This document shows positions 29,600 through 60,350 of a stretch of 64,000 nt of DNA, piece after piece. The notes below the pieces were generated by a model that had not been told where the DNA came from, made no database searches, and worked only from the letters and a program-made list of their open reading frames with translations. The position numbers were made by a program, and so were the translations under genes. Positions within the stretch are counted from its first letter, which is position 1. Every line of letters begins with the position of its first letter. The DNA comes from Raillietiella orientalis (taxonomy: Eukaryota): assembly GCA_036172245.1 (NCBI GenBank), contig JAYWIR010000002.1:4898001-4962000 (forward strand), written 5' to 3'.

Positions 29600-30900
29600 G
29601 TCGCCGCGAGGCGATACCAAAGGGGTGAGGAGGTAGCACCGTCCCACAGCGGATGCTGGAGAGTCACCCTCTCCCTGCACCTGTCATAGTTTCCGTCCAC
29701 GCTCCCCCATGTCCAGTGGTGAAGACGCGCTTGCACGAGATTCCCCCATGCAACACTAGCAACGTCGACTCCTACCGCTTGAGGGAGAGGTGGCCACTGT
29801 TCCAGCTCCCTGGAAGTCAGTTCACCTCCTCCGGAGGGATTTCGAGCAGCTCGCCCCAGCGTAGAAGCCCTTGGGGTGGGACACTCGGGGTCACAGCTGT
29901 CCATCACTTCCCGAGTTGCCCATGCCCCCAGAATTTTCTTCTCTACTGCTATGCAGCAAGTCACTTCGCACCCTGCCGGTATTACTCTGTCCCTTGCATC
30001 TTTTAGGTGGGGCAGCACTGGTTTAAGGGGGATGGACAGGGCCCAGAGTTGATGGAAATCCTTTTGGGTTCTTTTATTCTCTCTGCTTTGCTTCCAGCTT
30101 TTTTTTTTGGTTCTCCAAGTGCTGAGGAACCGCTCATCTCCTTAGGGGGGCCTCACAAGACTCTTCAAAACTGTCCATGCCACCCTAGAGACCACCTTAT
30201 GAATCCAGGAAGGTCTCCGGAAGAAGGAGTCCGTTCCTCTTACGCTTGGTAGGGAAACCGAAAGCAACCTCTTCCTGATTCTCTCCAGAGGATTCCCCCA
30301 AGGGGGACACTACTCATTTCTTATCCAAAAGGAACCCGGAAAGGACTGCTCCCTGTGTTCTCCTCTGAAGAGAACTCCGAAGGGAGCTTCCCACTTCTTC
30401 TGAAGGGCGCTCCCCGAAGGAAGCAGCGCGCTTCTTACATTCTGGAGAGGCAAGCCCCCGGGGAGATGCCAACCAGCTCCATGGAACGGCTCCATTTGCA
30501 CAACCGGAGGAGAGTACCTAAGGGAACCGGCTCCTTGATTCCTGGAGGGACCCAGGAGGGTTGACTTCCAACCCCGGAGGCCAGTCAACGGGACATCCGG
30601 AAGTTTCCGACTTCCACCAGTGCCGTACTCGACAGGGATGCCATCTATTTTGCTATCCTCTTCATGAGGACAACGTCAAGATGGCTCCATCTGGGAACCA
30701 TAAAACAGGAACTTGCTGGGATCCTTACAAGGATGCAGAGGACGCCCTCCAGCACACAGTGATCCCTCCCGAATCCCCCCATTTTTTTGATTGTATGTTT
30801 TTTGTTTTATCCTTTTTGTTTGTCTCTTCCCCTGTGCTGCCGAGGCGAACCCCGCTGGTCTGTGTGCCAGTTCCCAGCAGATCCTTCTCGTAGTTATAAG
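29600..30900 (-). mobile_element. Decayed Ty3/Gypsy gag-protease-preRT relic containing family A copy 2 (30040-30620)
   Basis: Degenerate zinc knuckle REGSLCAGGRPLHPCKDPSKFL (30690-30770), homologous to 32420-32510. 30040-30620 aligns with 59700-60350. Downstream RVIPAGCEV and ELTSRELEQW resemble the Gypsy pre-RT region. Confidence 0.55.
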
Positions 30901-31019: not shown

Positions 31020-32700
31020 CCTATGGGGGAAGAGGGGAGGATTCAAAACCCATGGAGCACCTCTCGTTCTCGGCGTCGACCTTTCCTTGGGCGAGATTAG
31101 AACCCGCAACGCTTGTTGCCACGCGCAGAGACCGCAGCCACACGACTGCCATCGCGGGCACATTCTCCGGGGGACTGGCTTTTGAGTCAGCAGAGCGAAG
31201 CAGACGATTGTTCCTGTTGGTACAGCCTGAGCTGGCGTCAGTCAGACTGGATTCCCCTGGCAGACATCTCAAGCACCTCGGTATCCCAGCAATCCGAAGG
31301 CAGGCCGGGGGGTGCAAGTCACTCGCCTCGCACCTTCCGAGCCGGTTCTTGGGGGTCCACCATGCAAGACGAATTCTCTCTCTGGGAAGTTCCATCCTGC
31401 ACGGAGCGTGGGACGCGATGCCGGGGGCTCAAGCAAGAAGGATACCTCACGAGCAGCATGAATGCCGCGTCCCGACTTGGATCTCGCTCTGGACGTCGGA
31501 ACGGCAAAAAAGCAAGCGACCATCAGGCAGGAGAGCTGCAGTGTCTCCCTCCTCGATCCCAGCTTCTGCGCCGGAGAGCTGCAGTGTCGACTGTCTGCAG
31601 GAAGCGGACACCTCTTCTTCCCCGTGAAGGAAAGTTTCAGATGGAGCCAGGCAGCCTCCTGCTTCCCTTCGCTCTCACACGTGTGACGCTCTCACACGTG
31701 TCGCGCAGCCAGTCTCGAGTACGCCGACCATGGTGTGGTCTAAGTAGCTGCGCCAAAGGCACGCCTTTTTCAAGTGCCTCCTTTCTCCTTACTACGATGT
31801 TCCCAAGAGAAGGGGTGCCTGGCTTCAGGAGACGGTTCGCGCGTGGGCGGGGATCAACGATCTGAACGAGTCATCACAGCGATTGCAGTGACCCTTTTGC
31901 AGCTGTTTCCAGCTCCAGAAGACCACCCGTTCGTTCCGTGAGGAGTGCGTGGGCAGAAAAAACCTCCCTTGCCGTAGTGCTGCTCTCCCTGAGTGCTTGG
32001 GCAGTAGCCTGCCGGGAAGATCAGAGGTCTCCTGCGAATCAACTCCAGGTGCAAGGATTTAGGTGGTTGGGCCTCGGGGTGAGCTGCTGGAGATTCTCCG
32101 CGAAGATCTAACGTGGCCCCCGATGTTCTTGCACAATCACACCTTCCCTCTCAAGTGGCAGGAGTCGGTGCTTCTGACGTTGCACTGGAGTCTTCTCGCA
32201 ACACTTGCCGCCATTATTGGTCACTGGGGGGTGGGGTGGGACCCCAGAAACGTTTTTTAAGCACCTCTTGTACGCAATGCATTACCGCTCCAGCCGCATC
32301 CCTAGCTGCTCTTTGCTGCCTTCGTGGGATTGTGGCTGCCTGGAGCGCCGCCGAAGGAGGCGAGGACGATAGGGAATCAATCCTATCCACTTCGCCATCC
32401 GCTTCCTGAGGATGACGAGATGGCCCCATCTGGGAAGCACGGAGACAGAAATTGCCGGCATCCTTGGAAGATGCGAAGGACGCCCCCTCCGGCAGAACGT
32501 GATTCCTTCCCGAGAGCACCAACTTTTTTTTCTATTTCTTTTAATCCTTGATTCTTTCCATTTCTTTTCGTTTTTGTTTGCTTTCCTCCCCTCTGCTGCC
32601 AGGCGATCCTCCGGCATCCAGCGGTCTCGCGGTCCAGTACTGCCGAGAGTCCTACCACTTACTTTACCGCCCTTGTATATTTACTGAATGCAATGAACGC
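31020..32700 (-). mobile_element. Decayed Ty3/Gypsy element: gag knuckle, RT and RNase H relics
   Basis: In order on the minus strand: ITFCRRGRPSHLPR (knuckle-like); AGYCPSTQGEQHYGKGGFFCP..SSGAGNS (like SGYxQ..KTAF.TP..PFGLxNA); SYLDHTMV with YLDHTMV at 31726-31746 (YxDD-like); ERREAGGCLAP; LTDAS at 31231-31245 and AMAVVW (RNase H). Confidence 0.6.
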
Positions 32701-35776: not shown

Positions 35777-37182
35777 TCAAATCAAATTGGAATTAGTCAC
35801 AGGAGCCTCAATACGCAGCATCTATAATAGTTGTCTATTAATGAATTATCATGATGAACATACCTTTTCTGTGAGTATGAAACGTGCATTGCAAGATTCT
35901 GGACAAACTTGGTAAGGCAACATTACATCCAGAAGATAACCCAAACCATGCAAAACTAGTCTTTCACAGTTTATTTCCAATTGGAGTTCTTCAGCTGATC
36001 TCTGAAAAGATTTGCTACAACACTAGTTTCTGACTCACTATTTCTGGAAGGTACACTTCTACCAACATGTGCTTAACTCCTCCTTCCACTGGAAACCTTA
36101 AAATCCTATGCTTTGGAACTACAGGTCTCTGTGGAAGAGCTGGTGAGAATATTTCCTGGATAAGAGGACTGTGTCTACTTTCAATAGGTTTGGCTGGAAT
36201 GCCATCACCTAATTCTTGAATCAATCTATTCTGTATGTGCTGCTCTTGTGGATTACCAATATATTTACGATTCTTGAGAACAACCCATTCTGTGAAAAAA
36301 GATAAACAGTATGCCAATATGTCCAACTTTTCCGTATTTAACCTTCCCCATCAGCAGGTCCATTCTTGTACTTCTCATCAACTGCCTGCAAACTGGCTCC
36401 CACAACAAAAGAACAAAACAACTTACTCTTCCTGATCTTGTCCAGGAATTCTGGATTGATAATAATGTCATGCACAGTGCATGACACTCCACCTGGTAGC
36501 TAATGATAAAAACTTTTATGCAGGCAACATAAATACCTTTATCTCTTTCTGTACGGGGTTCTCCTACAGATAAAGGTATTTTGTAAGGAGGCTCATCATA
36601 TTTTTCTAACAACTCTGTTAACTCTTCCTCTGTGATGTCCTTTGGTGGAGGTACCTGAGGGGCTTGGCATATGTTTAGAAATAGCTTCTGATTTTTCTTA
36701 TCACGAGTCTTTACACAAAATCCTGGAAAGAGCTTTCAGTGTAATTACACAAATTGTGAGTTTACCAGGAGTAGGAAGTATACGTAAACTGCTTGGCTGC
36801 CAATTGACAGTTCCCTCTGGAGGCACGATCAAAGAATCTCTGGCAGGCTCCTGGAAAGAAATTGTATTTACTCCTTTTGGCTTCAAAAAACAGAATTACT
36901 AAGGATATTTTAAAATTAAATCAGCATTGATTTGTAATGGAATTGTGTATGAGTTACACAAGTATAAAATAAATTCCATATGCATCCTCAAACATAGCTG
37001 TTAGGCATTTTTTTTTCAAATAGGCACCTAACAAAAATAACTATTCAACGGAATTGCTGACACAAAAAAAAATTAATCACATATTCAAATTGCATTCATG
37101 TTCACAGAAATGTTACCGTCAGTAACAGTGATTTTTCCAAAATAGTTTCATCGATCTCCAGGAAGTGCTTCCTTTCTTTCAT
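35777..37182 (-). CDS. PIH1D1: PIH1 domain-containing protein 1 (R2TP co-chaperone)
   Basis: Exon 1 at 37182-37117 (MKERKHFLEIDETILEKSLLLT) splices to 36850. Then ILPTPGFCVKTRD..KLFLNICQAPQVPPPKDITEEEL..YKIPLSVGEPRTERDK..CTVHDIIINPEF..WVVLKNRKYIG..LIQEL and a C-terminal CS-like domain. GT-AG introns include 37 nt (36038-36002) and 42 nt; TGA at 35779-35777. Confidence 0.92.
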
Positions 37183-38999: not shown

Positions 39000-41900
39000 T
39001 CCTAGCATCCCCATTTGGGCCTACACATTTGTCTCCATCCACCAAATTCCCATTCGACATCTTTTCGTAAAAATAATGCGTGCTGGGCATGATTTGAAGA
39101 AGGTTAGATCGCGCAAATTTTTGTTCGATTTTATATGCTTCTTTTTCCACATTGCAACCTTCTTTATACCCTTCTGGAGAATAGGATGATCCCGCTCGCG
39201 TAATACCCTTGTCTTTACTTGCGACTCCCAACTAATCATCAACGAACATCGGAATGCTCACAGCCACACAGTAAACGTTCAAGAATTCGCTTCATATTAA
39301 GAAATAAAACAGAAAATGCAAGGATTCTGTTAATCATCTAGTAACGCTATTCCCTGCTGCTAGCTCTTGGAATTTCTTGCAACGTATTACGTGCAGCGAT
39401 AGCACCGGCAAAATTGGACTTTAAAGGAGAAAACACTATTTGTCCCGCAGCTTGAGGGAATTCTAACTACACAGGGAGACACATTTTTCGAGACAACATA
39501 CTCACAAGAGATAGACAAGAAACAATTTCTTTGGAAAGAGCAGGTAGTATAGAAAAGGGAAGTAAAGCAGTTAGTTGAGGAACAACAAAGACAGATCTAT
39601 ACATGCAGAGAGTGAGTATGTTTGGAGTGTTTTTGTTTATAGTGTGCACTAATCTATGCAGCTCTTGAGAAATTTCCTGTTCAGAAGACATGGGTTCACC
39701 GCGTAGCTGTCAGCACCGATGCCAATGTGTAGACATGGATGGATTTCATGCTATACTTTATCGCGTACTAACCGGGAGCGTACGTTAAATGCCCGAAGAC
39801 CGCAAGGTATAACTCTGTGGTGCTCCAGGTTGCCCTGTGGCTGCCAGGCCAAAAGCAACATTGTAAAGCAAATGCAGTAAGTCTGCAAATTACATATTTC
39901 TACATTTGTTCGATCGTTTTAGATAATGTGCAACCACCCCTAGCAACACAAAATCCAGTCTTGTGCAACCTCGTGCCCTATGATTCAAGAAATTCCAGAA
40001 ACCATTGAGTTTTGCATTCAAGGCGATGAATCTGTGGTTTCTCTTCTCTTCAGGAAACGCTTCTGTCCATTTGCACCAGGGTCACTTTTCCATTGTGGTT
40101 AAAAGCAGCGCATCCGGCATCCCATAGGTGTTCAAAGGTCCTCCGATTTTCATCCCTTTGATTCTGGAAAACTTGGAATTTTCAAGCGAAATGAATGTTG
40201 TCAGTGGCTTTGAATCCTTCATAAATGTGCACGTAGGTACGCTCCCACCTATCTGGTAACACTTCTGGTGACGCATGTCTCAGATCCTCAGGGGAACACA
40301 ATGGGAAAGGCTGCTATCAGCTACTGCCAGAAGAATTCGTTTTTCTCCTGGAGGCACGATTTTATCGGCATTTAAAGAACCACTTGAAAGCATTTCTTTT
40401 CAACCTTTAACCCTCTCCCCATTTCCTTAAGCGGATTCCATAATCTTTCGATGGTGGTGGGAAACAACAAATCGAACGTGATGCTTCCTTGGTTCCAACC
40501 AAATCATTCTCTGGAGAGGAAACCTTCGTTCCATCCTGGACTGTTTTGACAGGCGTACATGACCAGTTTACAAGGCGAGAGTTTTCCTCTGTTTCCATCC
40601 GGCTTTCTTGTTACCAAATTCTCCAACATACAGGGGGAAAAGCGCTTCTTTGGGCTTTCCCCCAGTAACCTTGGTCTCCTGCTTTCGCCTACGTCACTTA
40701 TGAGCTCGCTTGGGCATTATGAAAACAAAGAGATGGAGGTAAAAATAGTTCAACAGAATGGCGCGGGCGGCCTAAATTCTTGACCACCTTTTATTCCGTG
40801 ATGCTTGCGGAATTCAGTAGGCGAGGACAGCAACACCCTGGAAGTCTTTTATCTAGAACAATAGGAACATCTTGACTTTCGAGAGCTGGAAAGGAAAGAC
40901 GAAATGGAATCTCGTGTGCAGCGTTTTCCGTCTGAAGTATTCAGGCATCTCCCCCCCCTTCCTCCCCTAATCTGGAGAACGCGGCGCCCTGGCTGGCCTG
41001 GAAAACGGAGAGGAAGGAAAATGGAGCACGTAAATAAGATGCAAAGTAGAAGCATTTCGGTCTTGCCTCGTCAACCACCTCCCAGCCAACTTTAAGGCTT
41101 CCCACAGAAGAAGCAGATCTGCTACGGGTGTCCGTTCGGAGACCTACATCCGGGTCTTCCTATGGCACCTATATTTCCGACCAAATTTCTTAAGCAACCC
41201 CATCCATAGATTGATGTAGCGTTTGCCCTTTGAGCCGTCCTCTAGAGGCTGCTGAAGTTCCTTCGATGTGTGATGCAGTCGCACGGGAAAACACAACGAC
41301 TCATCTCTTCAAAGGTCTCTACAGACTTATCCGTTTGAAGCTGAAGATACCTCCTTGTAATTGAAGCTCCGAGAAAGTCACCGGTGGATGTATCTGTTTC
41401 CTAAGAAACAATCGCTTCTGACTGCTTCTTTCCCTCTCTTTCTTTCCAAGTAGCATGCTAACCACCCCGTTTCCTCAAGATTCGTGGTGCAGATTTTCAA
41501 AAAGCTGCAGCGCTCCCTCCATGAGCAAGTGTAAACGTTGGTTACGTGATCTCCCAGGTCTGACGGGTAACACGAAACAGACGGAGTCGCGATGGGACTC
41601 AAGGTACTGATTCCTGCAAGAAACTGAGCTCGAACCTGAACTGGATGTCCAAACGCCTTCAGAGTCATCGTTGCTGGGAGACGTTCGAACTGAAGGAGCA
41701 CGGAGGCGATGCGAAGTGATACCAGAAGCACCAGAGAAACATGCTGTGGCTTCAATGTTGCCGCGTGCAGTCGCTGGACCACCGTCCTCGCAGAACGGCC
41801 CTCAGGAAACCCTTGTCCCGAAACACAGGCGCAGCAACCTGTTTACAAATGGTTCTTCCTCTAAGGTACCGGCAGAAGTGGACGATTCCCTCCACGATGA

Positions 41901-42600
41901 TTTCCCTCTTGCTCACTGCATCCCGTTCCCGTACTCCCACCCGCCCCTGGGGATCATCTTCGATACGTCACCGACCTGTCCTCCAAGATGCTTCACGGAA
42001 ACGAGCTGCGGTGTCGGTTTCCTGGTCACAGCGAGAGGATGAGGTGACCAGTGACGACGCGAAAGTCGATGAACCAAGATTCATCCCTGGCTTGGTAGCT
42101 CACTCCCTCCAGGGAGTACCTCAGGTGTGTGACGGGTGCAGTTCGGCATTCTTTTTCGAGAACAAGAAGCCTCCGAGACAGCAAACGAGGAACGGTCATG
42201 TGAACCAAGTCTATGGCTCTCTATGAGTCATTCATAACCGAACCATGGCGAAATTTCGTGAAGGTGGGTTGCAGAAGGAGAGAACCAAGGAAGAAAATTT
42301 GGATGTTTGCTTGGTGCGCAGCGTCGGCAGACGAGTAGCAGAGGCCACGAAAGAACCCGCAGACCCAAACGGCGAGACTTGGGGAAGCAGGACATTCCGG
42401 GATCACATCCCAGGGCTTTCCAGGCAAAGCTTGGAGACTGATGGAAGGTCAATTTCATCATCATCTCGTTCCAAGCACCATTCGACTAGGCGCCACCTCC
42501 AAACGGACCACCAAGCATCCCATGGAACGGCAAGAGCAAACAGACAAAAGAAGTTGCAGCTTCTGCATCCTGGTGCCCCTTCCGTTCATGAATTTCTTTC
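39000..42600 (-). mobile_element. Ancient Ty3/Gypsy pol fossil (RT-connection, RNase H, integrase)
   Basis: Colinear on the minus strand: APVTHLRYSLEGVSYQ..LILSL (connection); REIIVEGIVHFCRYLRG at 41857-41907 (RNase H ELLAIVxxxxHFRxYLxG); KIVPPGEKRILL..FSRIKGMKIGGPL..KWTEAFP (40370-40052, integrase); AWQPQGN (about 39830-39850). The RH-before-IN order indicates Gypsy. Confidence 0.6.
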
Positions 42601-42949
42601 TTTCTTTTTTTTTTTCTTTTCTTTTCCTTTTGCATTCATTTCTTCGCCATTTCCAGACACCACTGACCATAGCCCGGAACCTAAGTTTCGTCTGCACACG
42701 GGTCCAACGGAGCGCGAGAACGCGGACGAGGAGAGGACCTTTCATCCCGGCATGCGAGCGGAAACGACTCGGCCCTACGAGCGGAGCTTTCGTTCGCCCG
42801 GTTTCCGAGCAGCGGCGTGAGGAGGCGCTGGGGAGATCCGTCCGAGAGGCAGCTTCCTGGCCCCGCCGCAGCTCACCTCGGTCCAGTCATCCCGCCAGCG
42901 CTCGCAGACGCGAAGCGAAACGAGGCAAAGCAGACGAGGAGGGCAGGAG

Positions 42950-43912
42950 GACGGCCTGGAGCAGTGCATCGACCGCCTGCGAAGTCTCGACGGGTCCCCG
43001 AGCGCTGAGCGCGCCTACTCTCCGCATACGACCTTGATCGTAGCGCTGCAGCCCTCCCCTCGGGGAGCCTGGCAGGGTGGACGAGGCGAAACGCGCTCTC
43101 CGTCCCCACGCGCGCGTCGCACGTGCCCCAGCGGGCGACCTCCGCCGCCGCAGCCTATGCTCTTGGAGGCCGCAGCGCGCGAGCGAGAAGGACTCGGGCG
43201 TGCCCCGGAGGGCGTTCTTGAAACGCCCAGGCCCTTCCGGAGCGGCAGCACCCGGAGGCACACGCGGAATCCGTGCAGAGACCTCCCCCCCTTCCCCCCC
43301 CCCTTCATCACCCTCCTCCTAAATTTCCCTCGCCTAACAACCCTTCAGCATCCTCTGGAGAGAAGAGGGGAACCTGGCTGCGGACTGCGTCGAGCCTCCC
43401 GCCCCCCGTCCTTCCCCAGTCTGATGCGCTCCCTGGGGAGGTCCTCCGAGGTCGCGAATGTTCTGGAAGACGTGGAACCCCACCGGTCACTCGGAGACCG
43501 CGCGGCACGGCGGCGCCGCACAGCACAGTGTGGGGTTTCGCACATGCGCCGATAGTCCTACGGGCCAGCCCGGCGGAGGTTCCTTCGCTGCATCAGTCCT
43601 CGCCTGACTCCATCTACACCTCCTACTTCTCGGAACAGTGAGGCCACGTGGTCCGGGGAGCGACCCAGGCAGCGGCGGCGATGAGAACGCTCGCGCGCCC
43701 AGAAGAGCTGGCGGGGTGGGCGCAGGGAGCTTCCTCCAGAGGAAACCCTCCTATGATCCGGCCTCCTTCCGGGACTCGGGAGAAGATAGTGGATACTCCT
43801 CTCGAATTCTGTGCCGGTGCCCACATGGCTCCGTTCCCGGCACCCCTACGCGTCCCTCCCCCTCTCTCCCGCCTCTTGACGCCGGGTGCCCTTCCTTCCC
43901 ATCTCACAAAGA
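42950..43912 (-). mobile_element. GC-rich Gypsy RT/RNase H fossil immediately outside the left inverted arm
   Basis: GAMWAPAQNSRGVSTIF (like GLxNAPATFQRxM); GRIIGGFPLEE (like DDIIxxSxTxEE); DLPRERIRL (the same peptide as ELPRERIRL at about 31366-31392, with synonymous changes); LQRYD...AVDALL (like LQxYD..ADALS). Confidence 0.45.
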
Positions 43913-45096
43913 GGCTCCCCCCTGGGCGCAGCATCAACCGCCCCCGAGGCGGGAGCGACGGCGCAGGGGTTCCCCTGCCTAGCCTTCCCGGAACGCTCGA
44001 CCCGAGGCGAGTCACCTCCAGGGTACGGAAGGGTCGCTCGTCGATCCCTCCTGTCGCTCCTTCACCCCCTCGCCGCGGGTCGCACGCTCTCCGTCCAGAG
44101 TACCGGATGCGACCTCTGCAGGGGACTGCGACCTGCCTGACTGCGGGGGAAGGGGTCGCAGCCGCTCGGCGGTGAGGGAGAGGAGGGGTGGGAAAAGCCG
44201 GCGCGCGTCTCCAGTGATCGACTGATCCAGAGGGAAGGAAGAAGAGGCGGGGATTCGTGATCCGCCGCCGGCCGGGCGTGACCTGCAGCGCAACGCCCGT
44301 GGGGCCACGCGGCAGCCCTGCTTGGACGGACCGCACGTTCCTCTGGGGGTAGGAGGACCAGGGATGTTGCGCACTCCTGTCCCCCTTGGAGGGAAGGATG
44401 CGAGGGCTCCCCCCCGTCCGCCCTGCTGATGGGGAGAGGAGTCGCCTCGCGTCCCTGGAGTTTTGCGCTGTCCTGCAGGAGGAGTCTCCCTTCTTGCGAG
44501 CGAGCGGGGAGAGGAAAGGGGATGACTGGCAGCTCTGCTCGTCGGAAACGAGGGAGGAACCGTTGCGGGCGAAGGGAGGGGGGAGACCTTCTACTTCCCT
44601 CCCTGTTCCCTTCAGGCGTCTCCTGGCTTGTGGCGGGACGCATCCCTCCGAGAAGACGTTGCAGTTTCCAGATGCGGGTGAGAGAGAGAGAGAGTGAGAG
44701 GGGAGGGGAGGAGGAGGAAGTAAGGAGGGTCTCTGCGCAGCTTTCACGGAGCCTCCGTCTCTCCGTGACGTCCTCCGGGGCGCCGAGTCTCCTCCCTTCT
44801 CCCCCTCTCTCTCTTTCTCGCGCGTCGCATCCCGGGGAGCTTCCCGTTAGCGTGGCATCCCTTCCCATCCGTTCAGTTCGTCCCCTCCGCCTCTCCTCTT
44901 CCGTTCCTGAGGGCGCAGCCTGAGGGGTGGTCTGGAAGAGCAGAGCTCCCCTCCTTCGGGAGACTTGGCGCTTCCTCATCCTGCCTCTCCCGTCTCTGTT
45001 CCTCTGGTCGCGACCTCCCCGCAGAACGCGGCCACCCTGCTCGGCGGAGAAGGACGAGGGGTATACTCTCTGCCCCCTGGGGGGGTCGACGAGGAG
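43913..45096 (-). repeat. Left arm of a 1,184-bp near-perfect inverted repeat
   Basis: Reverse complement of 47026-48209. Paired ORF ends all sum to 92122, so there are no indels, and the translations are identical in several frames (e.g. 44062-44979 vs 47143-48060). Two mismatches are visible near the inner end. Confidence 0.97.
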
Positions 45097-45393
45097 TAAT
45101 GGTCGATGCTGGACTCCCCCCTCTGCCTTGCGGCTGGGGTGCGCGCCTCCCCGCCTCCCTGGATGCTTCGCTGAGGCTCTCCCTCTCCCCCTCCCTGAGG
45201 CTCCCCCTTGGCGATGGGTAGGGAGGGAGATCCTGCGCCTCCAATCCTGAGGGGGAAGCCTCCCTCGCTCCGGGAGGAAGGATGAGGGGAGGACGTTTTT
45301 TTTCTTCCTTTTTTTTCCCTCTTTTTATTGCTCCTCCATTGTGGTTGAGGGAGGGAGTTCCCCGGCGCCACGACCAGGAAGAGGTCGCTGCCC

Positions 45394-46461
45394 TCACTCC
45401 TCCTGGCAGTAGTCGCAGGAGAGGGCACAGTATTGCTTCATGAAGGCGGGGCTGTGCCTGCAGCGTTTCTCGGCCACCCAGTGCTGGCAGTAGCGGGAGA
45501 AGGCGATGGAGTCCCGGCAGCCTCCTCCCGAGGACGCGTCCTGCTGGCGGAAGGGCGCGTGCGGCAGCGCCGGGGGCACGAAGCACTGCCCGGGATGCGC
45601 CAATCGCGGGAGGGCGAGGAAGGGGAACCTCATCGCCCCTCCGAGGACCATCCAGGGAGCCTGGAGCGCGTATCCCCCCCCCGTCCAAGGCGGGGGGTAC
45701 GCGAAGTGGTGGTAACTTGCCGGGAAGGCAGAGGGCTGGTAGCCGAAAGACGCGGCGGGGGGGAACCCGAAAGGGAGCGGGCGCCCCCCTGCGATCAGGG
45801 GAAGCGCCGAGATGAGCTGCTCACCCAGGGCGCTACCGGAAGCGCAGCGGGGGACGTCGCAGAATCCGGGGTCGCCGCTTCTGGTGTAGCACCACGGGCC
45901 CAGGGGGTTGCGGTCCGGGTTGCGGCAGAAGTTCCTCGCGCGCGACCTGCTGCCCTCGGGAAAGTCCTTGTCCTCCGGGGGCTGTTCGGTCCTGGGCAGG
46001 GGTCCGGAGTGCTCCGTCCACGGCAGGCAGGCGCTACCGTCCTTCGTGACGGCCAGTGTGCCTGCGTATTCCCATCCGTGGGTGGTCGAGCGGCAGCTTC
46101 CTGGGGGGGAGGAGAAGGAGAGAGGAGGAGAGGGGGAACGGGGGACGGGGCCGCGTCAGGGGCAAGTCCGCCCCCTCCGCCTCCCCTCCGCGCCGCACGT
46201 ACCGACGGATTCTCTCCGCATGGCGTGCAGCATCCACAGGAGGATCGCCGCACGGCACTCGAGGAAGCAAACGTTGTGGTAGGTGACCCCGTCCGTGCCA
46301 CACACCGGAGAGTACACGGGGTCGCAGGGGCACCCGCCGAAGGGGAGCGTCGCGAAGCCGGCGGCCCCGCTCAACAGCAGGGCCGGGAACACCGTCGCCG
46401 CCAGCAGCGCCGCAGCCGCCGCCAAGAGTCCGAAGCACCAGCGGCGTCCGGGAGCGGGCAT
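45394..46461 (-). CDS. Secreted Kazal-Kringle-(Pro/Gly/aromatic linker)-ShKT multidomain protein, 309 aa, 3 exons
   Basis: ATG in gccacgATG at 46461. Exons 46461-46203, 46100-45825 and 45788-45394 total 930 nt, with phase-1 GT-AG introns of 102 and 36 nt. Hydrophobic leader; Kazal CPCDPVYSPVCGTDGVTYHNVCFLEC; kringle CRSTTHGWEYAGTLAVTKDGSACLPW..NFCRNPDRNPLGPWCYT..FCDVPRC; ShKT CRDSIAFSRYCQHWVAEKRCRHSPAFMKQYCALSCDYC. AATAAA at 45329-45324. Confidence 0.88.
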
Positions 46462-47025
46462 CGTGGCCACGTGCCGAACGTCAACTGAGCGGCCGGCGGG
46501 GAGGACCTGCCACCAGCCAACCGGGGGAAGCGGCGCCCCTCCGCCACGCTCCGCCGGACAACCGCAACGCCCTGCCCGTTGCTGGAAGCCGGACTCCAGG
46601 GGTCGGGTCGGTCGTCCACGCCTCCCGGCCCCCAGGCGCGTCGCCGCGTAATCCGAGGAACGTCCGTCCCTTCGCCCTCCCCCTCCCTCATCCCCTTACG
46701 CCTCCCCATTCGCTGCAGGAGGAGCAGCAGCCGCGGGAGATGTCGAGCGGTCGCCGGACGGCAAGGTCGCGCGGCGGGGTGAAGGGCGGTCATCACCGCG
46801 AGCGCGTGTTCCTTCCCGCCCAGGGATGCAGGAAGATGTGCTTCTCGCCTGCGCAGCCCCGCGCCCGAAGGAGAGGATCGCTCCCTTCTTTCCGGGTACG
46901 TCAGGGAGGGAGGTCCCGCTCACCAGAGCCGGTCCCTAGAACGGATTGAAGGAGTGCGCAGCAGAAGGTTCCCGCCTGCATCCTGGAACCCCACGGCGTT
47001 CCCGGAAGTTCGCTACCGGCTGTTC

Positions 47026-48209
47026 CTCCTCATCGACCCCCCTAGGGGGCAGAGAGTATACCCCTCGTCCTTCTCCGCCGAGCAGGGTGGCCGCGTTCTG
47101 CGGGGAGGTCGCGACCAGAGGAACAGAGACGGGAGAGGCAGGATGAGGAAGCGCCAAGTCTCCCGAAGGAGGGGAGCTCTGCTCTTCCAGACCACCCCTC
47201 AGGCTGCGCCCTCAGGAACGGAAGAGGAGAGGCGGAGGGGACGAACTGAACGGATGGGAAGGGATGCCACGCTAACGGGAAGCTCCCCGGGATGCGACGC
47301 GCGAGAAAGAGAGAGAGGGGGAGAAGGGAGGAGACTCGGCGCCCCGGAGGACGTCACGGAGAGACGGAGGCTCCGTGAAAGCTGCGCAGAGACCCTCCTT
47401 ACTTCCTCCTCCTCCCCTCCCCTCTCACTCTCTCTCTCTCTCACCCGCATCTGGAAACTGCAACGTCTTCTCGGAGGGATGCGTCCCGCCACAAGCCAGG
47501 AGACGCCTGAAGGGAACAGGGAGGGAAGTAGAAGGTCTCCCCCCTCCCTTCGCCCGCAACGGTTCCTCCCTCGTTTCCGACGAGCAGAGCTGCCAGTCAT
47601 CCCCTTTCCTCTCCCCGCTCGCTCGCAAGAAGGGAGACTCCTCCTGCAGGACAGCGCAAAACTCCAGGGACGCGAGGCGACTCCTCTCCCCATCAGCAGG
47701 GCGGACGGGGGGGAGCCCTCGCATCCTTCCCTCCAAGGGGGACAGGAGTGCGCAACATCCCTGGTCCTCCTACCCCCAGAGGAACGTGCGGTCCGTCCAA
47801 GCAGGGCTGCCGCGTGGCCCCACGGGCGTTGCGCTGCAGGTCACGCCCGGCCGGCGGCGGATCACGAATCCCCGCCTCTTCTTCCTTCCCTCTGGATCAG
47901 TCGATCACTGGAGACGCGCGCCGGCTTTTCCCACCCCTCCTCTCCCTCACCGCCGAGCGGCTGCGACCCCTTCCCCCGCAGTCAGGCAGGTCGCAGTCCC
48001 CTGCAGAGGTCGCATCCGGTACTCTGGACGGAGAGCGTGCGACCCGCGGCGAGGGGGTGAAGGAGCGACAGGAGGGATCGACGAGCGACCCTTCCGTACC
48101 CTGGAGGTGACTCGCCTCGGGTCGAGCGTTCCGGGAAGGCTAGGCAGGGGAACCCCTGCGCCGTCGCTCCCGCCTCGGGGGCGGTTGATGCTGCGCCCAG
48201 GGGGGAGCC
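47026..48209 (+). repeat. Right arm of a 1,184-bp near-perfect inverted repeat
   Basis: Reverse complement of 43913-45096; boundaries ctcctcatcgacc (47026) and gggggagcc (48209). Confidence 0.97.
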
Positions 48210-49900
48210 GCGCTCTTATCTGGACCGCGAGGTGGTCGTGGCGCCGAGTGGCGAAGACTAGCTAGGGTGAGGCAGGACTCTTCCTTCACATCCTTCCCGC
48301 GCCCCCCCCCCTCGTCCTTCCGTAGGCACAGAGGCGAGAGCGCGAGGGATACCCGGGGGAGGGGGGAGGGGGGAGGGGAGAGGGAATGGAAGGGGAAGAA
48401 GAGGCGGGAAGGGATGTGCGGGTGAGCTCCTCCATAGCCTGTGGTACGCCCAATGATCCGACCTTTCCAGAGCTCCCGGAGGTCAGAAGCACTTTCCCAC
48501 AGGAGAGATCGCCTCTTTCCCATCTCTCGATGGGCGCGAGAGTACTTCCCAGGCAACGGCCGCGCAACCGGACGTGGGAGCGCATTGATGGGCTGGACAT
48601 CTTCGGAAGTCCAGCCTGTCTCCCCCGGCCACGTGACCGCGTCCTTCCCTGAAGGCTCTCCCCGAGTGGTTTTGGTTCGCCTCCCTTTCTCAATCTCCCT
48701 CCCAAGCTCGAGGGGTGAGGATGGGGCTGGAGCTGCGACGCGCTCCGGGAGTGTTCCCTACCACTTTCCTGAGGTCCGGGCCGTAAGGTCGGCTGTCGCA
48801 GGAAGCGGAAAGCCAAGGGGCGTGAGGGGGGTCGTCCATCTTGAAAACGGGAATGGAAAAGAAGGAACCCATCCCAAGGTATGGAGAGAGAAGATGTTGG
48901 AGTCCCTGGCTGAAAGCGCTGGCAGGCCGACTCCCCTCCTCCGCCTTCCCCCGGATCCGAAGACCAACGACCCTCTTCTCAGAAGGGAAGGTAGTTCTTC
49001 CTCAAGACGAGCGCCCGAAGGAGTCGCCGCCCCCGTCCCCATCTGCGAGAGTTACCGGACAACGGTTGGCGGGTTCGTTTTCGGTCCTCCTTCAGCAGCT
49101 TTCTGCGCATCCTCGCCGTACCCATGCATCCCTGCAGAGTCCTTCCCGATCCCAGGGACTCGTCTTTCGCTAGAACACGATTTCCCCGGACTTTCCCGGC
49201 TGTTCCCATACCGCTGTTCCGACTGCCGCCGCTAACGGGCGCGGATTCAGCTGAGCAGTGTTCCCTCGTGGGCAATCGGAGACGAGAGAACGAATTCCGC
49301 AACATCCGAAGCCAGGAGAGGTTCTTCCCCCAGTGCGTTCCCGCTCCTCTGCCCCTTGCGAACCCTAGGAACGTCTTTCTTAGCTCCGTCCCATTTCCCA
49401 TCCAGGAGCGCCAGCCTCCACCCCCATGCTTCTTCCTCCCGAGTGTCCACTCCCGCGATGCGAGGCCGCTCCGTCCCCACTGCGTAGGTACGATGGACCG
49501 CCTCTCCTTCGCCCCCTTCGCGGACTCCCGGGAGGAGGCCACGACCAGGAGTCAGCCGGAAAGGAATCAGATTGAATAAGAAGGAAAGGAGCCAAGGGAG
49601 GGAGGAGACACTCCGGTCCCTTGCTCGGTCAGCGGCGGTCACTCTGGTCGATGCGCTTACTCTCGAGAGTCCACGAGGGAGCGGGTGCGCAGAAAAACAT
49701 CATCTGTTACGTTGACAGCTCGCCCTCGTTGCAGCTTCCGCTGCTTTTGCGCTACCTTCCTGACTGAGCGTGCCCCCGGGCCAGCTTCCAAATCGTCTCC
49801 GTGGGGCCGCCGCGGGCGTCCCTCGTTGCGTCGAGGGTGACGATAAGGATCGGCTTCACACTCCAGTTTGTCGGGAAACGGGAATGAGTGATCTTCCTGG
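47450..49900 (+). mobile_element. GC-rich Ty3/Gypsy pol fossil (RT, RNase H, integrase) running through and beyond the right arm
   Basis: Colinear degenerate motifs: SSPFLSPLARKKGDSSCR at 47597-47650 (SPWxSPxVLVxKKDGSxR); LEVTRLGSSV at 48101-48130 (EVxYLGH); RALIWTARWSWRRV at 48209-48250 (RxFLGxxGYYRRF); GARVLPRQRPRNRTWER and LRECSLPLS*GPGRK (RNase H); AVPIPLFR..ERFFPQ..PLRPHCVGTMDRL..PF (integrase, 49200-49530). Confidence 0.55.
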
Positions 49901-50976
49901 GAAATATTTCCCGAGGAAGGGGGGTGGGGATCAGACTGCAACGGATCAGACGAGAGGGGAGGAACGGCGGGAAGTCGCGGGTGCTGAAGGCGGAGGCGAT
50001 GCTGCGTTTCCAGCAAGTCTGAGGAGGATGTGTCGAGGGAATCCTAGCTCGCTACTGAAAGGTGTGAGGAGAGACTGGAGGATTCCTGAAGGACACACGA
50101 AAAAATGCAACCGGGGATTCATCCTGTTTATTTCCGGAAATGCACGAGAAAATGGTCCGGAATTGATTTGCTGATTGAGAGGAAGTTTCTAAAGAATGCG
50201 TCGGCGCGAGAATGACGCCTCGGAAGACTTTCGTAGAACCCGTGGGAGAAAAATCTGAAATATTAAGCAGACTTCAAGAAGGGAAGTATTTCCCTCCAGA
50301 GAAAGAAACAAAAGTAAAATTCACTGGGTCAATCGCAACTTCCCCCTCCTCCTCCCTCTCTCTCTCTCTCCTAGCATCAACTTCTTCGAGAACCACGTAA
50401 ACGAACACTTCCGAATGGGGGCGGACGATCACCGAGAAGACAAGTTCAGCATTCCGCTAAGCACCAGCGTTTCACGCGGATCGGTAGGTCTCTAAAACTC
50501 AGAAACACTGCAAGAATAGGTCTCGGAACCTTCCGAGAGCCACCTTCTCCCGATAAAACACTCAAACCCCACTTTTCCCTGATTTTCATCTTGGAGCTGG
50601 TTTTAGAGCGATTATAAAGAGCTTTCCCCGTGCAAGGTATGGTAATTCTTCGTCAGCGGCCACATCCGTAACAGTACTTTCCCAGTGCAGCTCCATTTGC
50701 AAACCTTCCTCGGTGAGACGAGTACGCTTTTTGTCCTTCCAGAGAGAGGACAAACAATGACTTCGGAGCTCCCGGTCTTCCATCAGACCGCGACGTTTCT
50801 ATGGAAACCTTAAAGAAGAACGATCACGAGTTTTTTTTTTTTTTTCGCCGTCCCTTTTTATGTCATGAAAATTACTACGATCGAGTGCATTAAAAAAAAT
50901 GAGCCGCTCTCTTCAGGGAGTGCAACGTCATGAGTCCATGCCCAGGGAAAGTTCAGCAATGAAATAGGAACTGAAT

Positions 50977-52494
50977 ATGTCTGTTGCGAGCCGGAATCAA
51001 AGAAAGTTTCCGTGTGGTGGATGTCTGGAATCGAAAGGTGATGGGGCGAACACGCCTCGGGCACCCAGAAACAGTTCGTGGAGTCGTGTGCCCACCCGGA
51101 GTGCCGCATCCCTTCGCACAACCCTTAAACCTCCGTTGGATGAGCGACCAGCATGGGACAACTCGAGTTTTGTTCCACGGACTCCGGTGCAGGTCAAATC
51201 GCCGATGCGAGCTGCAGTTGAGGAACTGAAGCTTTCTGTACGAAGCATAGAAGAGCAGATTGTATCCCTGGACATAAACACAGAACACTTTAAGGAACAG
51301 TTTTACCTACGACTCAAGGATTGCGAGGAAAGCATGACAAAACAGAAAGAACTCATTCAGACTGACCTCGTGCACTTACAAAACAAGATAAGCGACGAAT
51401 GCAAGAGTCATCAAAAGAGTCTATTTCAGAAATTGGGAGAGATCCAAAACATTCAGAACTCTCTTCAGAGTGAAGATCAGAATGACGAGTTTGCAAGACT
51501 GGATAAGGAAACACGTGTTTGGAAAATTATTAAGGAATTGAAAAATCGGATGGATGATATCGAAGAGAAAGGTCTATTATCGCCTGAAGATATGATATGC
51601 CTCCAGGAAAAAATTGCAAACCTGAGAATAAGTTTAGTTACCCGTGACGAATACTGCTCATTCAGGAAAGAATTGGTACAATTTCTTGAAGAATACACTT
51701 TGAAAGGGGAATGCAACAGATTCAAGGATAAGTTATTTTGTTTGGCAGATGAGCTGGCGCAGAAAGAGTCATGCGCAACTCTTGCCGAAGAGCTGATGCA
51801 ACTAAAAGAGGAAAGCAGACAACTTATTTTCTTCCAAAACAAGAGAGAAATCATGCGGAATCTCTGCCAAAACCTGGAAAAGGAGATGAAAAATATTGAA
51901 ATGGAAATGAAAAAACTTCAGATACTCCATTCGAAAAAACGACTGCTGACTCATAAATGGGATAGTCTTCTTTCATGTGAATCGAATCTAAATTCCCTTG
52001 ATCACTATGGTTTGAAAGAAAGCATTGGTAAAATAAGAGAAACAGAAAGGTCACAAGACATAGCTCAGCTCTGTGAAGAAATAGAAAAATTAATTTCCCA
52101 ATTTCTAAGAGAGAAATATTTAGATACCCCCAGGATAATGAACGACAATGTTAACTATACGATTGGAAAGATTCGGGAAGAAGTGGGAAAAGAAATCGAG
52201 AAGGCACTGCAAACCTTACACGATGATATTTCACAGAAACTTCGACAACACGGAAATGACCTTCAAACTAACTGTATTCCTCTGCAACCAATATTTGACT
52301 CTGCAGTCTCTGAACATTTGGATAGTATTAATGAATCTTTACAAAGAAAACTACAGAATCTGACTTCGGAATGTGAAGCACAGTTGGATAATATGAAAGA
52401 CAAATTCAATCATCAATTATCAGGTCTTGAATCTTATGTAGTGGAAAAGTTAGGAAGAGATGCTGAAACCAAGCAGGCAGTTGCACCATCATAA
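50977..52494 (+). CDS. Intronless 505-aa coiled-coil protein of unknown function
   Basis: Uninterrupted 1.5-kb ATG-to-TAA ORF, mostly in AT-rich DNA, too long to be chance. A basic Pro/Ser-rich N-terminus is followed by about 400 aa of E/K/L/Q-rich heptad-like sequence. Confidence 0.7.
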   Translation: MSVASRNQRKFPCGGCLESKGDGANTPRAPRNSSWSRVPTRSAASLRTTLKPPLDERPAWDNSSFVPRTPVQVKSPMRAAVEELKLSVRSIEEQIVSLDINTEHFKEQFYLRLKDCEESMTKQKELIQTDLVHLQNKISDECKSHQKSLFQKLGEIQNIQNSLQSEDQNDEFARLDKETRVWKIIKELKNRMDDIEEKGLLSPEDMICLQEKIANLRISLVTRDEYCSFRKELVQFLEEYTLKGECNRFKDKLFCLADELAQKESCATLAEELMQLKEESRQLIFFQNKREIMRNLCQNLEKEMKNIEMEMKKLQILHSKKRLLTHKWDSLLSCESNLNSLDHYGLKESIGKIRETERSQDIAQLCEEIEKLISQFLREKYLDTPRIMNDNVNYTIGKIREEVGKEIEKALQTLHDDISQKLRQHGNDLQTNCIPLQPIFDSAVSEHLDSINESLQRKLQNLTSECEAQLDNMKDKFNHQLSGLESYVVEKLGRDAETKQAVAPS

Positions 52495-56295: not shown

Positions 56296-58944
56296 AATAT
56301 GGAATCAATACTAATGCATCTAATATGTTCTGTACGGGATCCTCTTATCAAGCTGATTTAAAGGAATCAAACAAACTCCACCCACAATTCACCATGCAAA
56401 AATTGCAACCAAAATCTATGTAACACCTTGATTTATTTTAATACCTCAAAACAAAACAGCTGATATACTTTTCTGAAAAATGATTTTTGGTTGAGGGTAA
56501 GGAACGATTTAAAAATGCCGGAATTTTCTCTATACGCTTTTGCGGCTTACAAATGGATCGGTAAATTTATGTAACTTTTATCACAACAGCAGTTAAGGAT
56601 TTGGGATGTGGAATGTAAGTTAAATACAAACGGCTTTGTCATATAGTTCCTGACATGTTTGAGCAAAATCCAGAGCTCTCACTAGAAGATGCCAGTACAA
56701 CGCTTAATTTATTTGAGTGGCAATAATTAGAAAATCACAACAGGGTTGGCAACTTTCACCGTGAACTTGTTTACGTAACATTTCATCAGATACTTCTGTC
56801 AAGGTTGCCACAAAATCAAGGAAAGTCGTTACCAAGAGGACACTTTGTAGAAAGCAAAACATTAGTACTGAATGCCGGTCGATATGTATTTGAAATTCTA
56901 AAACGTTTTTGTATGATGTTCATTCCTTACAATCACCCAGCAGTTTCAAGTATCACAAAATCTGTTCGTATTTGATCAGTCACAGTATCCGAACCTGCAA
57001 AACTTACTGCTATATATAATACAGTCACCTGAATCACCAGGTTCATTCACCGTCTTTTAGCATATCCTGATTATTGAAGACTCCATCGAAAGATCATATA
57101 CGAAACTCTAGACTCTATGCTAATACATTTATTATGTTCCCTTATGTGATATCCCTTCCTTTCAGTAAAGTGCACTTTGCATGCATCTATCGCTCTTGTA
57201 GAATTCCTAAAATTTAAAAACTACACACAACTCTTTTATGCCAATTAATGATTTTTATGTTCCCATGTGACAAAGAATTGTGTATCTCTAATTACGCTTG
57301 TGAACTATAAGACTTCTCATATAAAATGATTAGTGAGCGTTTAAAATGGTTTCTACATTTCTAAATTCATTATAAAAAAATCCACAGATCTAAGAATAAT
57401 GCTAAGTTGCATAATTTTCTTCCTCACAGAAACGAAACGTATTTATCGATTGACCTTTTAATATTAAGCAAAAACTATGATGTTGTTGAAAGTGGAAAGT
57501 ATACTGCAAGTTCCATTTCTTCTACAGTAGTAAAATTCATAGCTCATGTCAGCTTTTCTTATTTTTCATGATTAGGAGAGTTTATTTCTTTGTCTTCCAA
57601 TAGCATTTTCTATGATATCTACGCACTGTCTTGTACCATTTCTATTCACTTGAATGCCCAAATATGTATACACTATGGATGATACTTATAGCTATCTCAT
57701 AAATCTACATATTGCTTAAGTGAGTCTTTATTTTTCTTTATTTGAACTAATTTTTTTCAAATCTTCCCATTCAGAAAGACCTTAGATATGTTTCACTTTG
57801 TAAATTTAAACAGAACGGGTAGTTTCGATTTCGGAATTTATTACCATCAATTTATATTGATGGTAATAAATTCTGCTTAAAACGAGTAATATACAGAACA
57901 GTTTTCCTTTCAGAAATGGCATGTTCCTGTCCGAATTTCGATGCCCAGATTTGTTGTCCACGGATGTGACCGGCAACAGTATCCCTCTGTTGAGAGTCAG
58001 CCTGTCGTCAGCCGACGAGCACATATTCGGACACAAGATCTTCCTGAGGACCGCAACGAAGGGGAGCGCGGCCACAGGCCATAGGAAGTGCTAGGCCTCC
58101 TGGACGCGACCTGATCGACGACATTCTTTTCAACGAGGACGCTGAGCAGACGGTCAGGGGCTACGAGCTGTCCAGAAATGACATTAGAACGTGCTTTCTT
58201 ATGTAAACAGCACATTTCCTCATCAAGGAAAGTGAAATCATCATACGTAATTCGTACATATATAAAGAGGAAATGAGGATAAAGAATAGCAAATTTGAAA
58301 GAGGATACGAGACTGATCATTCGTTTCTTGTATGCCTTAGTACTGAATGGAAAGTCTTGAACGAACGAAAGTCCAGTTCCTATTTGTCTCTTTTAGATCT
58401 GAAGTGTTTTAGCTCACAAAATTTGAGAATTCTTTCTTTTTCTTTTTCCTTTATCGAAATCAAAACGAGTGATGAAGGAAACATTTCCCATCGAATTCTT
58501 TCTCATATGCTTTGGAAACAGAGACTGTAACACGAAAAGAATGGTCCTTCTATGAAAAGGAAAAAAGGAGGAAAAAAAAGGATGCAAATTTAAACGTAGG
58601 ATAGACTCGATTCGTTGTTTCACATGTTTTAGATAAAGGATTGAAATAAGAAGAGTGTTTTCTTTATTTTGATTCCGTAAATTACACAGAAACTATAATG
58701 CAGACTGGATAATGATCTACTGTCCCTTCTACCTAAAAGGAACGGAAATTATGATTTGAATAAAATAAATCGATAGCAATCCCTTTATGATAATGCATAA
58801 AGGGATTGGTATCAATATATTCTACTCTTAGTGGTAAAATGAGTGGACGAAGTTTAATTCATCTTTATTGCGTTTTCACAGAGCTTCAAATACCGAAGGA
58901 ATGAATGTTGTCATCGCTTCCATGATAATTGCAGGATCACATGA

Positions 58945-59260
58945 TAAACAGGAGCGGTTCCTTTGCAGGTTCCCTTTGGAGAAGAAAAAATGGAATGGTC
59001 TTCCATACGGGGGTCCCTCCGGAGAGAATAAGGAAGGAGATTTCCTTCGGGATCCTTCCCCAGGCATGAGAAGAGCGGACTCTGAGCCCTTCCTGGATTT
59101 ATAGGGGGGACGCCTGCCTGTGTACTTTTTATCTTGAAGAATTACTAAAGAATGCACCCTTGGGTGGCATGGTGTAGCGTCAAAGAGCTGCATGAGGCGC
59201 CGCCAGGGGTGCAACGGTTTCTGAGGTGCTCAGCGAACCAAAAAAAGCTGAAAGGAAAAA
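58945..59260 (+). repeat. Family A repeat copy 3, inverted relative to copy 4
   Basis: The reverse complement (aatccaggaagggctc...ttctctccggaggga...ttctccaaagggaacctg) aligns with 59780-60085. Confidence 0.75.
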
Positions 59261-59699: not shown

Positions 59700-60350
59700 A
59701 TTGACCCAGGATGTTCCTTTTGAATTCCTCTGTTTTCGCTGCTTTCCTTCAAGCTTTTTATTTTGTTTTCTGGTTTTTGCTTTTTCGGTTCGCCGAGTGC
59801 TGAAGGACCGTTCGCCTCCTTAGGGGAAGCTCACCAATTTCTTTGACACCGTCCGCGCCGCCCGAGGGTGTGCGACTCTTCACGTTGTAAGGGTCACCCC
59901 GGAGGAATGATCATCCCGTGAATCCAGGAAGGGCTCCGGAGGAAGGAGTCCGTTCCTTTCTTACTCTTGGGAGAGGAGCCCCGAAAGGGACTTCTACCTT
60001 GTTCTCTCCGGAGGGATTCCCCGGTTTGTGGGGGTCACTCCTCGTTTCTTCTCCGAAGGGGACCTGGAAAGATCCGCTCCTGGAATTTCTTCTCCGGGGG
60101 AATCTCCCGGGAAAAATCCGCTCCTTGTTTCCTCCTCCCGAAGGAACGCTCCCCGATTCCCCTGAAGGGAGCAGCGCGCTTCTGACGCTCTGGAGAGGCA
60201 AGCCCCCAGGGGATGCCAACAAGCTCCATTTGCACAACCGGATGTGAATCTCAAACGACTCCTAGATTTCTGGAGGGGCCTCGGAGGGTCGATTCCCTAT
60301 CCCGGAGGCCAGTCGGCGGAGGCATCTGGAGGTTTTCGGCTTCCACCGGA
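59700..60350 (-). repeat. Family A repeat copy 4 (probable Gypsy gag/protease relic)
   Basis: About 600-bp direct homolog of 30040-30620 (gaatccaggaagg..ccggaggaaggagtccgttcct; gcagcgcgcttct..tctggagaggcaagccccc..gctccatttgcacaaccgga). Minus-strand RVAHPRAARTVSKKLV resembles a decayed D(S/T)GA protease motif. Confidence 0.8.

What the first reader, a model, noticed from the sequence alone, without database searches (positions are those of the whole stretch)
43913..48209. Palindromic cassette: an intact secreted Kazal-Kringle-ShKT gene enclosed by 1.18-kb near-identical inverted arms
Seen: arms 43913-45096 and 47026-48209 (no indels, two visible mismatches at the inner end) flank a 1,929-bp spacer. 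The spacer holds one complete gene with its polyA signal and about 560 bp of upstream DNA. I see no target-site duplication or transposase. Known: recombination between inverted repeats flips the spacer, and arm-to-arm conversion keeps palindrome arms identical. Inference: (a) an invertible cassette with two orientation isomers of a defence/effector-type gene, (b) a foldback or Pack-type mobile unit carrying a host gene, or (c) a source of long dsRNA by read-through that regulates the gene. This is the best candidate for an undescribed system in the window.
Basis: partly seen in the sequence, partly recalled or inferred. Interest (0 to 1): 0.88.

Follow-up and report, generated by a model that had tools for sequence, protein, structure and literature searches.

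The report
Small repair-made palindrome around one gene
Two mirror-image copies of 1.2 kb of non-coding DNA enclose a single-copy gene for a secreted protein in an arthropod genome; the edges look like the scar of DNA copied during break repair, a known kind of structure, and nothing points to a dedicated gene switch.

Summary
Inverted arms (43913-45096, 47026-48209) are identical over 1,166 bp, with two transitions at the inner end. They enclose an intact two-exon gene: signal peptide, Kazal, Kringle, ShKT. I found no target-site duplication, terminal repeats, transposase or recombinase. A flip would leave 1.18 kb on each side of the spacer unchanged, so no promoter is swapped.

The edges are informative. 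A 22-bp transition-rich fringe continues inward (P about 0.002-0.009). A 6-bp direct repeat brackets the identical core (P about 0.005, post hoc). The inner edge falls on C-run/G-run quasi-palindromes. The palindrome sits at the summit of a smooth 9-kb GC dome, yet the arms are no richer in GC than the left flank or spacer.

Best reading: templated copying during break repair, primed at short inverted homology inside a long-lived recombination hotspot. An old palindrome kept identical by gene conversion is the main rival. No reads or genome were available, so an assembly artefact and spacer flipping are untested. The scan has noted many similar palindromes on other pieces of this genome, one with the same ragged edge (unchecked notes). 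Known kind, modest interest.

The parts
43913..45096 (+). Left arm, non-coding, GC 0.672
   Evidence: no codon periodicity; no Pfam or Rfam match
47026..48209 (-). Right arm, inverted copy; differs at 47043 and 47032 only
43913..45078 (+). Perfectly identical core (1,166 bp; partner 47044-48209), including a 14-bp GA repeat and C/G runs without a single indel
45097..45118 (+). Inner diverged fringe, left side: 12 of 22 identical to 47004-47025, 8 of 10 mismatches are transitions
47004..47025 (-). Inner diverged fringe, right side
43918..43923 (+). Hexamer CCCCCT near the outer end of the core (mirrored at 48199-48204)
45073..45083 (+). Same hexamer ending exactly where perfect identity ends (45078), within a C5-T-G5 quasi-palindrome
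47038..47049 (.). Perfect 12-bp palindrome C5-TA-G5 centred on the first mismatch of the right arm
46203..46461 (-). Exon 1: hydrophobic leader and Kazal domain with five cysteines
46101..46202 (-). GT-AG intron, 102 nt, GC 0.755
45394..46100 (-). Exon 2: Kringle, Pro/Ala/aromatic linker, ShKT, stop
45324..45329 (-). AATAAA polyadenylation signal, inside the spacer
41400..50300 (.). Smooth GC dome (about 0.30 to 0.71; half-height limits), midpoint about 45,850 against palindrome centre 46,061

Best explanation
The cassette is a by-product of DNA break repair, not a machine. A long-lived recombination hotspot built the GC dome by GC-biased gene conversion (inferred). Inside it, two short, imperfect inverted look-alikes of about 40-50 bp already stood on either side of the gene. 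A break at one of them, at a C-run/G-run quasi-palindrome, was repaired by pairing with the other. About 1.16 kb was copied, and the strand rejoined its own chromosome where the hexamer recurs. That single recent event gave a second, inverted arm. The enclosed gene is an ordinary single-copy host gene that was not duplicated. The spacer may flip passively by crossover between the arms, with little expected effect on the gene. Shown: the anatomy and the edge features. Inferred: the hotspot, the break, the order of events. Which arm is the copy is not settled.
For: Zero differences in 1,166 bp, slippage-prone tracts included. The outer edge is sharp with no fringe, while the inner edge is graded: 0 of 1166, 2 of 18, 10 of 22 mismatches. 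The fringe score is reached by 79 of 48,825 random pairs with transition-aware scoring and 437 of 47,196 without. A 6-bp direct repeat brackets the core; 32-57 of 8,370 overlapping control segments show this. C5-W(W)-G5 occurs only at the two inner edges in 8.5 kb. Arm GC equals the left flank (0.672 vs 0.674, P 0.97) and the non-coding spacer (0.683, P 0.61), so arm-to-arm conversion did not make the dome. No transposon or recombinase features. The Kazal-Kringle junction with the same five-cysteine spacing occurs in a protein of the ostracod Cyprideis torosa, so this part of the gene has an animal counterpart. Known parallels: microhomology-primed templated and inverted insertions at breaks (PMC11724301, abstract); CNV breakpoints enriched at GC peaks in dog (PMC4053742, passages).
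Against: Ten of the 12 mismatches in 45079-45118 are transitions, against a background share of 0.31. This suggests descent from a common copy and fits an old palindrome as well; G-T wobble pairing would favour only 7 (top strand) or 3 (bottom strand) of them. The hexamer and motif tests were made after seeing the sequence, and their control segments overlap and include the arm. The arm is richer in GC than the right flank (0.672 vs 0.622, P 0.011). No outgroup, reads or population data were available. The hotspot itself is not measured.
Confidence: 0.5

Rival explanations
1. An old small palindrome kept identical by recurrent arm-to-arm gene conversion. The inner fringe is the margin that conversion tracts rarely reach, and the spacer gene flips now and then as a neutral polymorphism.
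For: Graded, transition-rich inner edge. Palindrome centre within about 200-300 bp of the dome centre. Known in nematodes, where inverted structure outlasts sequence (PMC1803023, first quarter read), and in primates, with genes in spacers and about 50% of spacers inverted between species (PMC8327919, passages). Unchecked scan notes report conversion patches in other palindromes of this genome.
Against: No fringe at the outer edge and no residual homology between the flanks or between the spacer halves. Arms are not richer in GC than the left flank or spacer, unlike primate X palindromes (PMC8981503, passages). The arms carry no gene whose selection would preserve them.
Confidence: 0.25
2. Assembly or whole-genome-amplification artefact: a chimeric fold-back read, or a mis-join, duplicated one arm.
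For: The core is perfectly identical, and the window cannot show otherwise. Amplification makes artificial palindromes (10.1101/173872, passages), and assembly errors can create palindromes (PMC7953838, passages). The scan lists 111 notes matching 'inverted arms palindrome' in this genome, a number that could also reflect a systematic artefact.
Against: The structure needs two switches, the second returning to unique right-flank sequence. Decayed inverted pairs of 57-61% identity in the same window show that such structures arise in vivo here. The GC profile runs smoothly through all four junctions.
Confidence: 0.12
3. A mobile element: either a Foldback or Pack-type unit whose long terminal repeats captured the gene, or two copies of a 1.15-kb non-autonomous element inserted into similar target sites, the hexamer being its target duplication.
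For: Long inverted termini around a host gene. The hexamer repeat (9 bp in the left arm) resembles a target duplication. Unchecked scan notes describe site-homing GC-rich LINEs in this genome.
Against: No duplication outside the cassette, and no TIR between the arm's ends. No internal tandem subrepeats, no Pfam transposon match and no third copy in 64 kb. Identity extends beyond the hexamers on both sides.
Confidence: 0.07
4. A selected regulatory device: a programmed invertible cassette, or convergent or read-through transcription giving dsRNA against the gene.
For: Geometry resembles yeast flip/flop loci with 2-kb inverted repeats (PMC6692504, passages). An initiator-like hexamer (consensus recalled) in each arm points into the spacer (44873 +, 47249 -).
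Against: Only one gene lies in the spacer, with identical 1.18 kb on both sides; no silencing landmark was identified next to either arm, and no recombinase was found. The initiator-like motif occurs 12 times in 8.5 kb, so it carries little weight. The polyA signal lies before the arm. No Rfam match.
Confidence: 0.06

Closest known systems
Templated and inverted insertions at double-strand breaks by microhomology-mediated template switching (PMC11724301, abstract and outline seen; FoSTeS/MMBIR recalled)
   Same: Inverted copy of nearby DNA, short homology at both junctions, no transposon marks.
   Different: The local fold-backs in that abstract are mostly 5-34 bp. Here 1.16 kb is copied across a 1.9-kb spacer, and the inner homology is about 40 bp at 70% with excess transitions.
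Conversion-maintained palindromes of primate X and Y chromosomes (PMC8327919, PMC8981503, PMC3723533; passages) and nematode inverted repeats (PMC1803023; first of four parts)
   Same: Near-identical inverted arms, single-copy spacer that can hold a gene, passive spacer inversion possible.
   Different: Arms here are 1.18 kb (8-140 kb on the human X), non-coding, and not richer in GC than the left flank or spacer. Age and conversion are not shown.
Inversions flanked by inverted duplications from staggered breaks in Drosophila (PMC1885836, passages)
   Same: Inverted duplication of non-repetitive sequence around a single-copy segment.
   Different: That model joins ends without homology and does not predict the inner fringe or the hexamer. 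Without an outgroup it is unknown whether the spacer is inverted.
GC peaks as recombination hotspots and CNV breakpoints in dog (PMC4053742, passages)
   Same: A duplication sitting on a local GC peak.
   Different: The dome here is about 9 kb wide and rises by about 0.35-0.4 in GC fraction (dog peaks about 1 kb). Recombination rate and PRDM9 status are unknown.
Flip/flop mating-type loci of yeasts (PMC6692504, passages)
   Same: Invertible segment between repeats of about 1-2 kb.
   Different: Those hold two alternative gene sets, with orientation-specific silencing shown or inferred (a telomere or centromere in the cases where it is known). Here there is one gene and no such landmark was identified.

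Membership tests
Repair-templated inverted duplication | Copy of nearby single-copy DNA in inverted orientation | tested here: met
   (two copies in 64 kb; rest of the genome not searchable)
Repair-templated inverted duplication | Microhomology or homeology at both junctions | tested here: met
   Inner 40 bp at 28 of 40, and the hexamer repeat at the outer end; post hoc
Repair-templated inverted duplication | Ancestral single-arm allele exists | not testable with these tools
   No genome, relative or run
Conversion-maintained palindrome | Arm identity above 99% | tested here: met
   1182 of 1184
Conversion-maintained palindrome | Structure older than arm divergence implies (orthologous arms in relatives) | not testable with these tools
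   No orthologous locus found; the inner fringe is only suggestive
Conversion-maintained palindrome | Arms richer in GC than flanks | tested here: inconclusive
   Equal to left flank and spacer, higher than right flank
Foldback / Pack-MULE transposon (features recalled) | Target-site duplication outside the termini | tested here: not met
Foldback / Pack-MULE transposon (features recalled) | Termini are a dispersed repeat family, often with tandem subrepeats | tested here: inconclusive
   No third copy or subrepeats in the window; no look-alike in the scan's index; genome not searchable
Programmed invertible cassette (flip/flop) | Inversion changes promoter or silencing context of alternative genes | tested here: not met
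   One gene; 1.18 kb identical on both sides. Distal enhancers or chromatin not testable
Programmed invertible cassette (flip/flop) | Both orientations present and regulated | not testable with these tools
   No run listed
Hairpin-RNA / endo-siRNA locus (recalled) | Transcript spans both arms and yields small RNAs | not testable with these tools
   No RNA holder listed

The most novel reading that the evidence does not exclude
In this arthropod genome, GC domes are very old, fixed break hotspots that keep spawning and re-homogenising palindromes at C-run/G-run quasi-palindromic sites. A single-copy gene caught at the summit is then flipped and GC-loaded far more often than its neighbours (GC3 0.87 against 0.29 in THOC2), giving a standing two-orientation polymorphism. 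This 4.3-kb cassette is short enough for one long read to span, so flips and conversion could be counted molecule by molecule.
Probability: 0.2. Interest if true: 0.6.

Novelty: new member of a known kind. Interest (0 to 1): 0.27.

Why it matters
As a structure it is ordinary. Its value is as a small, readable example linking three things: a steep GC dome, a palindrome at its summit, and edge scars that name a repair pathway. If the genome's many palindromes prove to sit on dome summits with the same scars, this would give a testable origin for palindromes outside sex chromosomes. The Kazal-Kringle-ShKT combination was not found among the relatives checked and may interest people working on secreted crustacean proteins, but its function is untested.

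Tried and rejected
Own genome: none held. Sequencing runs: none was listed, and no RNA holder was listed, so no reads were laid; this is no evidence either way.

Relatives of the gene: word-indexed searches with exon 2 and exon 1 gave nothing. Metagenome contigs gave 85 pattern matches and 0 confirmed. The ESM Atlas gave no usable hit. HMMER gave 2,196 hits at E up to 0.001; the best stretch of all 150 listed starts in the Kringle. Of those 150 I scanned 63 with Pfam: 1 had Kazal plus Kringle, 0 had ShK. A BLASTP of the ShKT part against the 154 proteins found nothing. A paper search for Kazal, Kringle and ShKT listed 2 papers, neither on this architecture by its listing. A search for ostracod, genome assembly and palindromes listed 3 unrelated papers.

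Arm: no look-alike in the scan's index, no Rfam match in the window, no Pfam match in six frames, no codon periodicity, no similarity to the window's other repeat family.

The first gapped fringe test (112 of 14,904) was spoiled by control pairs drawn from the same place and was redone without them. The first splice attempt used a wrong start coordinate and was corrected. Initiator-like motifs are too frequent to place the start site. Foreign origin of the dome was rejected as unlikely: GC rises gradually and runs into the neighbouring ORF. The organism is an arthropod with no close relative in the database (best true THOC2 identities about 65%). An ostracod link is weak: C. torosa Kringles rank 14, 19 and 20 of 154. 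No structure or complex was predicted. No supplements were read.
Full report
OBSERVATION. The arms are in the assembly as described. 43913-45096 and 47026-48209 align without gaps at 1182 of 1184 bp. The outer 1,166 bp are perfect, and both mismatches, each a transition, lie in the innermost 18 bp. The 1,929-bp spacer holds a minus-strand gene of two exons around a 102-nt GT-AG intron, encoding 321 aa. Kazal, Kringle and ShK score above their Pfam cut-offs, the leader is hydrophobic, and AATAAA follows the stop inside the spacer. Codon periodicity is seen in 4 of 27 windows between 42 and 50 kb, all over this gene and none over the arms. No genome is held and no run was listed, so nothing here is checked against reads.

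CONTEXT. THOC2 places the window in an arthropod with no close relative in the database (about 65% identity to ticks, insects and crustaceans alike). One of 63 Kringle relatives scanned (of 150 listed) has Kazal followed by Kringle. It is a Cyprideis torosa protein with the same five-cysteine spacing, so this part of the gene has an animal counterpart. None of the 63 had ShK. The function of the protein is untested; 'defence or effector' is a guess from the domain names.

The cassette sits at the top of a smooth GC dome. GC climbs from about 0.30 at 38 kb to 0.71 at 46 kb and returns to 0.33 by 53 kb. The half-height midpoint is 45,851 and the palindrome centre 46,061. The gene's GC3 is 0.87 against 0.29 in THOC2. 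The arms (0.672) match the left flank (0.674) and the non-coding spacer (0.683) and exceed only the right flank (0.622). Arm-to-arm conversion therefore cannot be the main source of the dome. The lead to read the dome as GC-biased conversion came from notes on other pieces of this genome; those notes are unchecked.

EDGES. First, similarity fades inward instead of stopping: 0 mismatches in 1,166 bp, 2 in 18, then 10 in 22. Eight of those 10 are transitions against a background share of 0.31 (P 0.002). Random pairs from the dome reach the fringe score in 0.14% of 200,000 ungapped trials, and in 79 of 48,825 (transition-aware) or 437 of 47,196 (no transition bias) gapped trials. An earlier run had a faulty control and is set aside. 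The outer edge shows no fringe with transition-aware scoring and only a weak one without (1,919 of 47,196).

Second, the hexamer that ends the perfect core also stands 5 bp from its outer end; in the left arm the repeat is 9 bp. Control segments show this in 32-57 of 8,370 cases, but they overlap and the test was post hoc. Third, the pattern C5-W(W)-G5 occurs only at the two inner edges in 8.5 kb. There is no duplication outside the cassette or around either arm, and the arm has no terminal repeats of its own. There are no subrepeats, no third copy in the window, and no Pfam transposon or recombinase match in 39-45 and 47-53 kb.

MECHANISM. These features fit templated copying during break repair. 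Two short inverted look-alikes flanked the gene. A break at one paired with the other, copied about 1.16 kb, and rejoined where the hexamer recurs. That accounts for the perfect core, the one-sided fringe, the bracketing repeat and the place at a presumed hotspot (confidence 0.5). The break, the hotspot and the order of events are inferred. The excess of transitions is the weak point: it suggests that the look-alikes were old copies, which also fits an old palindrome kept clean by repeated conversion (0.25). Against that rival stand the bare outer edge, the lack of extra GC in the arms and the lack of a gene in them. An artefact remains possible (0.12): amplification makes false palindromes (10.1101/173872, passages). 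However, two switches are needed, and decayed inverted pairs in the same window show that such structures form in vivo. A mobile element (0.07) or a regulatory device (0.06) has little support. A flip would leave the 564-bp upstream DNA and 1.18 kb on either side unchanged. In human palindrome P6 inversions were rare next to conversions, 3 against 56 (PMC3723533, passages).

COMPARISON. It works like known templated inverted insertions (PMC11724301, abstract) and looks like a miniature of primate and nematode palindromes (PMC8327919, PMC8981503, passages; PMC1803023, first of four parts). Staggered-break inversions give the same outline (PMC1885836, passages). A tie between GC peaks and duplication breakpoints is reported in dog (PMC4053742, passages). 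Flip/flop loci have two alternative gene sets and, where known, a silencing neighbour (PMC6692504, passages); this cassette has one gene and no such neighbour was identified. Palindromes were few in the parthenogenetic animals surveyed by a gene-based method (PMC7953838, passages). The scan holds 111 notes matching 'inverted arms palindrome' for this genome (8 shown), including a 2.2-kb pair with the same ragged edge (e1-7590415), and GC domes whose notes mention no palindrome. I could not check any of these.

VERDICT. Real in the assembly, probably real in the animal, and a new member of a known kind. It is not shown to be an invertible, mobile or RNA-producing system. The most novel reading not excluded is that fixed GC-dome hotspots keep spawning palindromes in this genome and flip the genes they enclose (probability 0.2, interest 0.6 if true). 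Interest 0.27.

Noticed in passing
window 29692-29857 and 32076-32241: Decayed inverted pair (95 of 166 identical, 40 transitions) centred near 30,970, inside a second GC-rich block at about 28-33.5 kb.
   Followed up: partly
window 58949-59245 and 59781-60082: Decayed inverted pair (190 of 312 columns identical) in a third small GC high. It belongs to a dispersed repeat also at 30059-30620 and 8841-9048. All three main GC highs in the window carry an inverted pair near their middle.
   Followed up: partly
window 46203-46461 (-): The Kazal domain has five cysteines and runs into the Kringle without the sixth; the same spacing occurs in a Cyprideis torosa protein. One unpaired cysteine lies in the linker before ShKT.
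   Followed up: partly
window 50968-52494 (+): A 508-codon open frame, coiled-coil-like, with only sub-threshold apolipoprotein-like matches. Its first 100 codons lie in the dome's slope and are GC-richer at second positions (0.56 vs 0.26).
   Followed up: no
window 20563-23631 (+) and 36265-36735 (-): THOC2 exons and a PIH1-domain exon: ordinary host genes in AT-rich DNA.
   Followed up: partly
window 4580-4653 and 7221-7294: 74-bp direct repeat, 91% identical, 2.6 kb apart.
   Followed up: no
window 57834-57873 and 58758-58827: Two short hairpin-forming palindromes (40 bp at 95%, 70 bp at about 80%).
   Followed up: no
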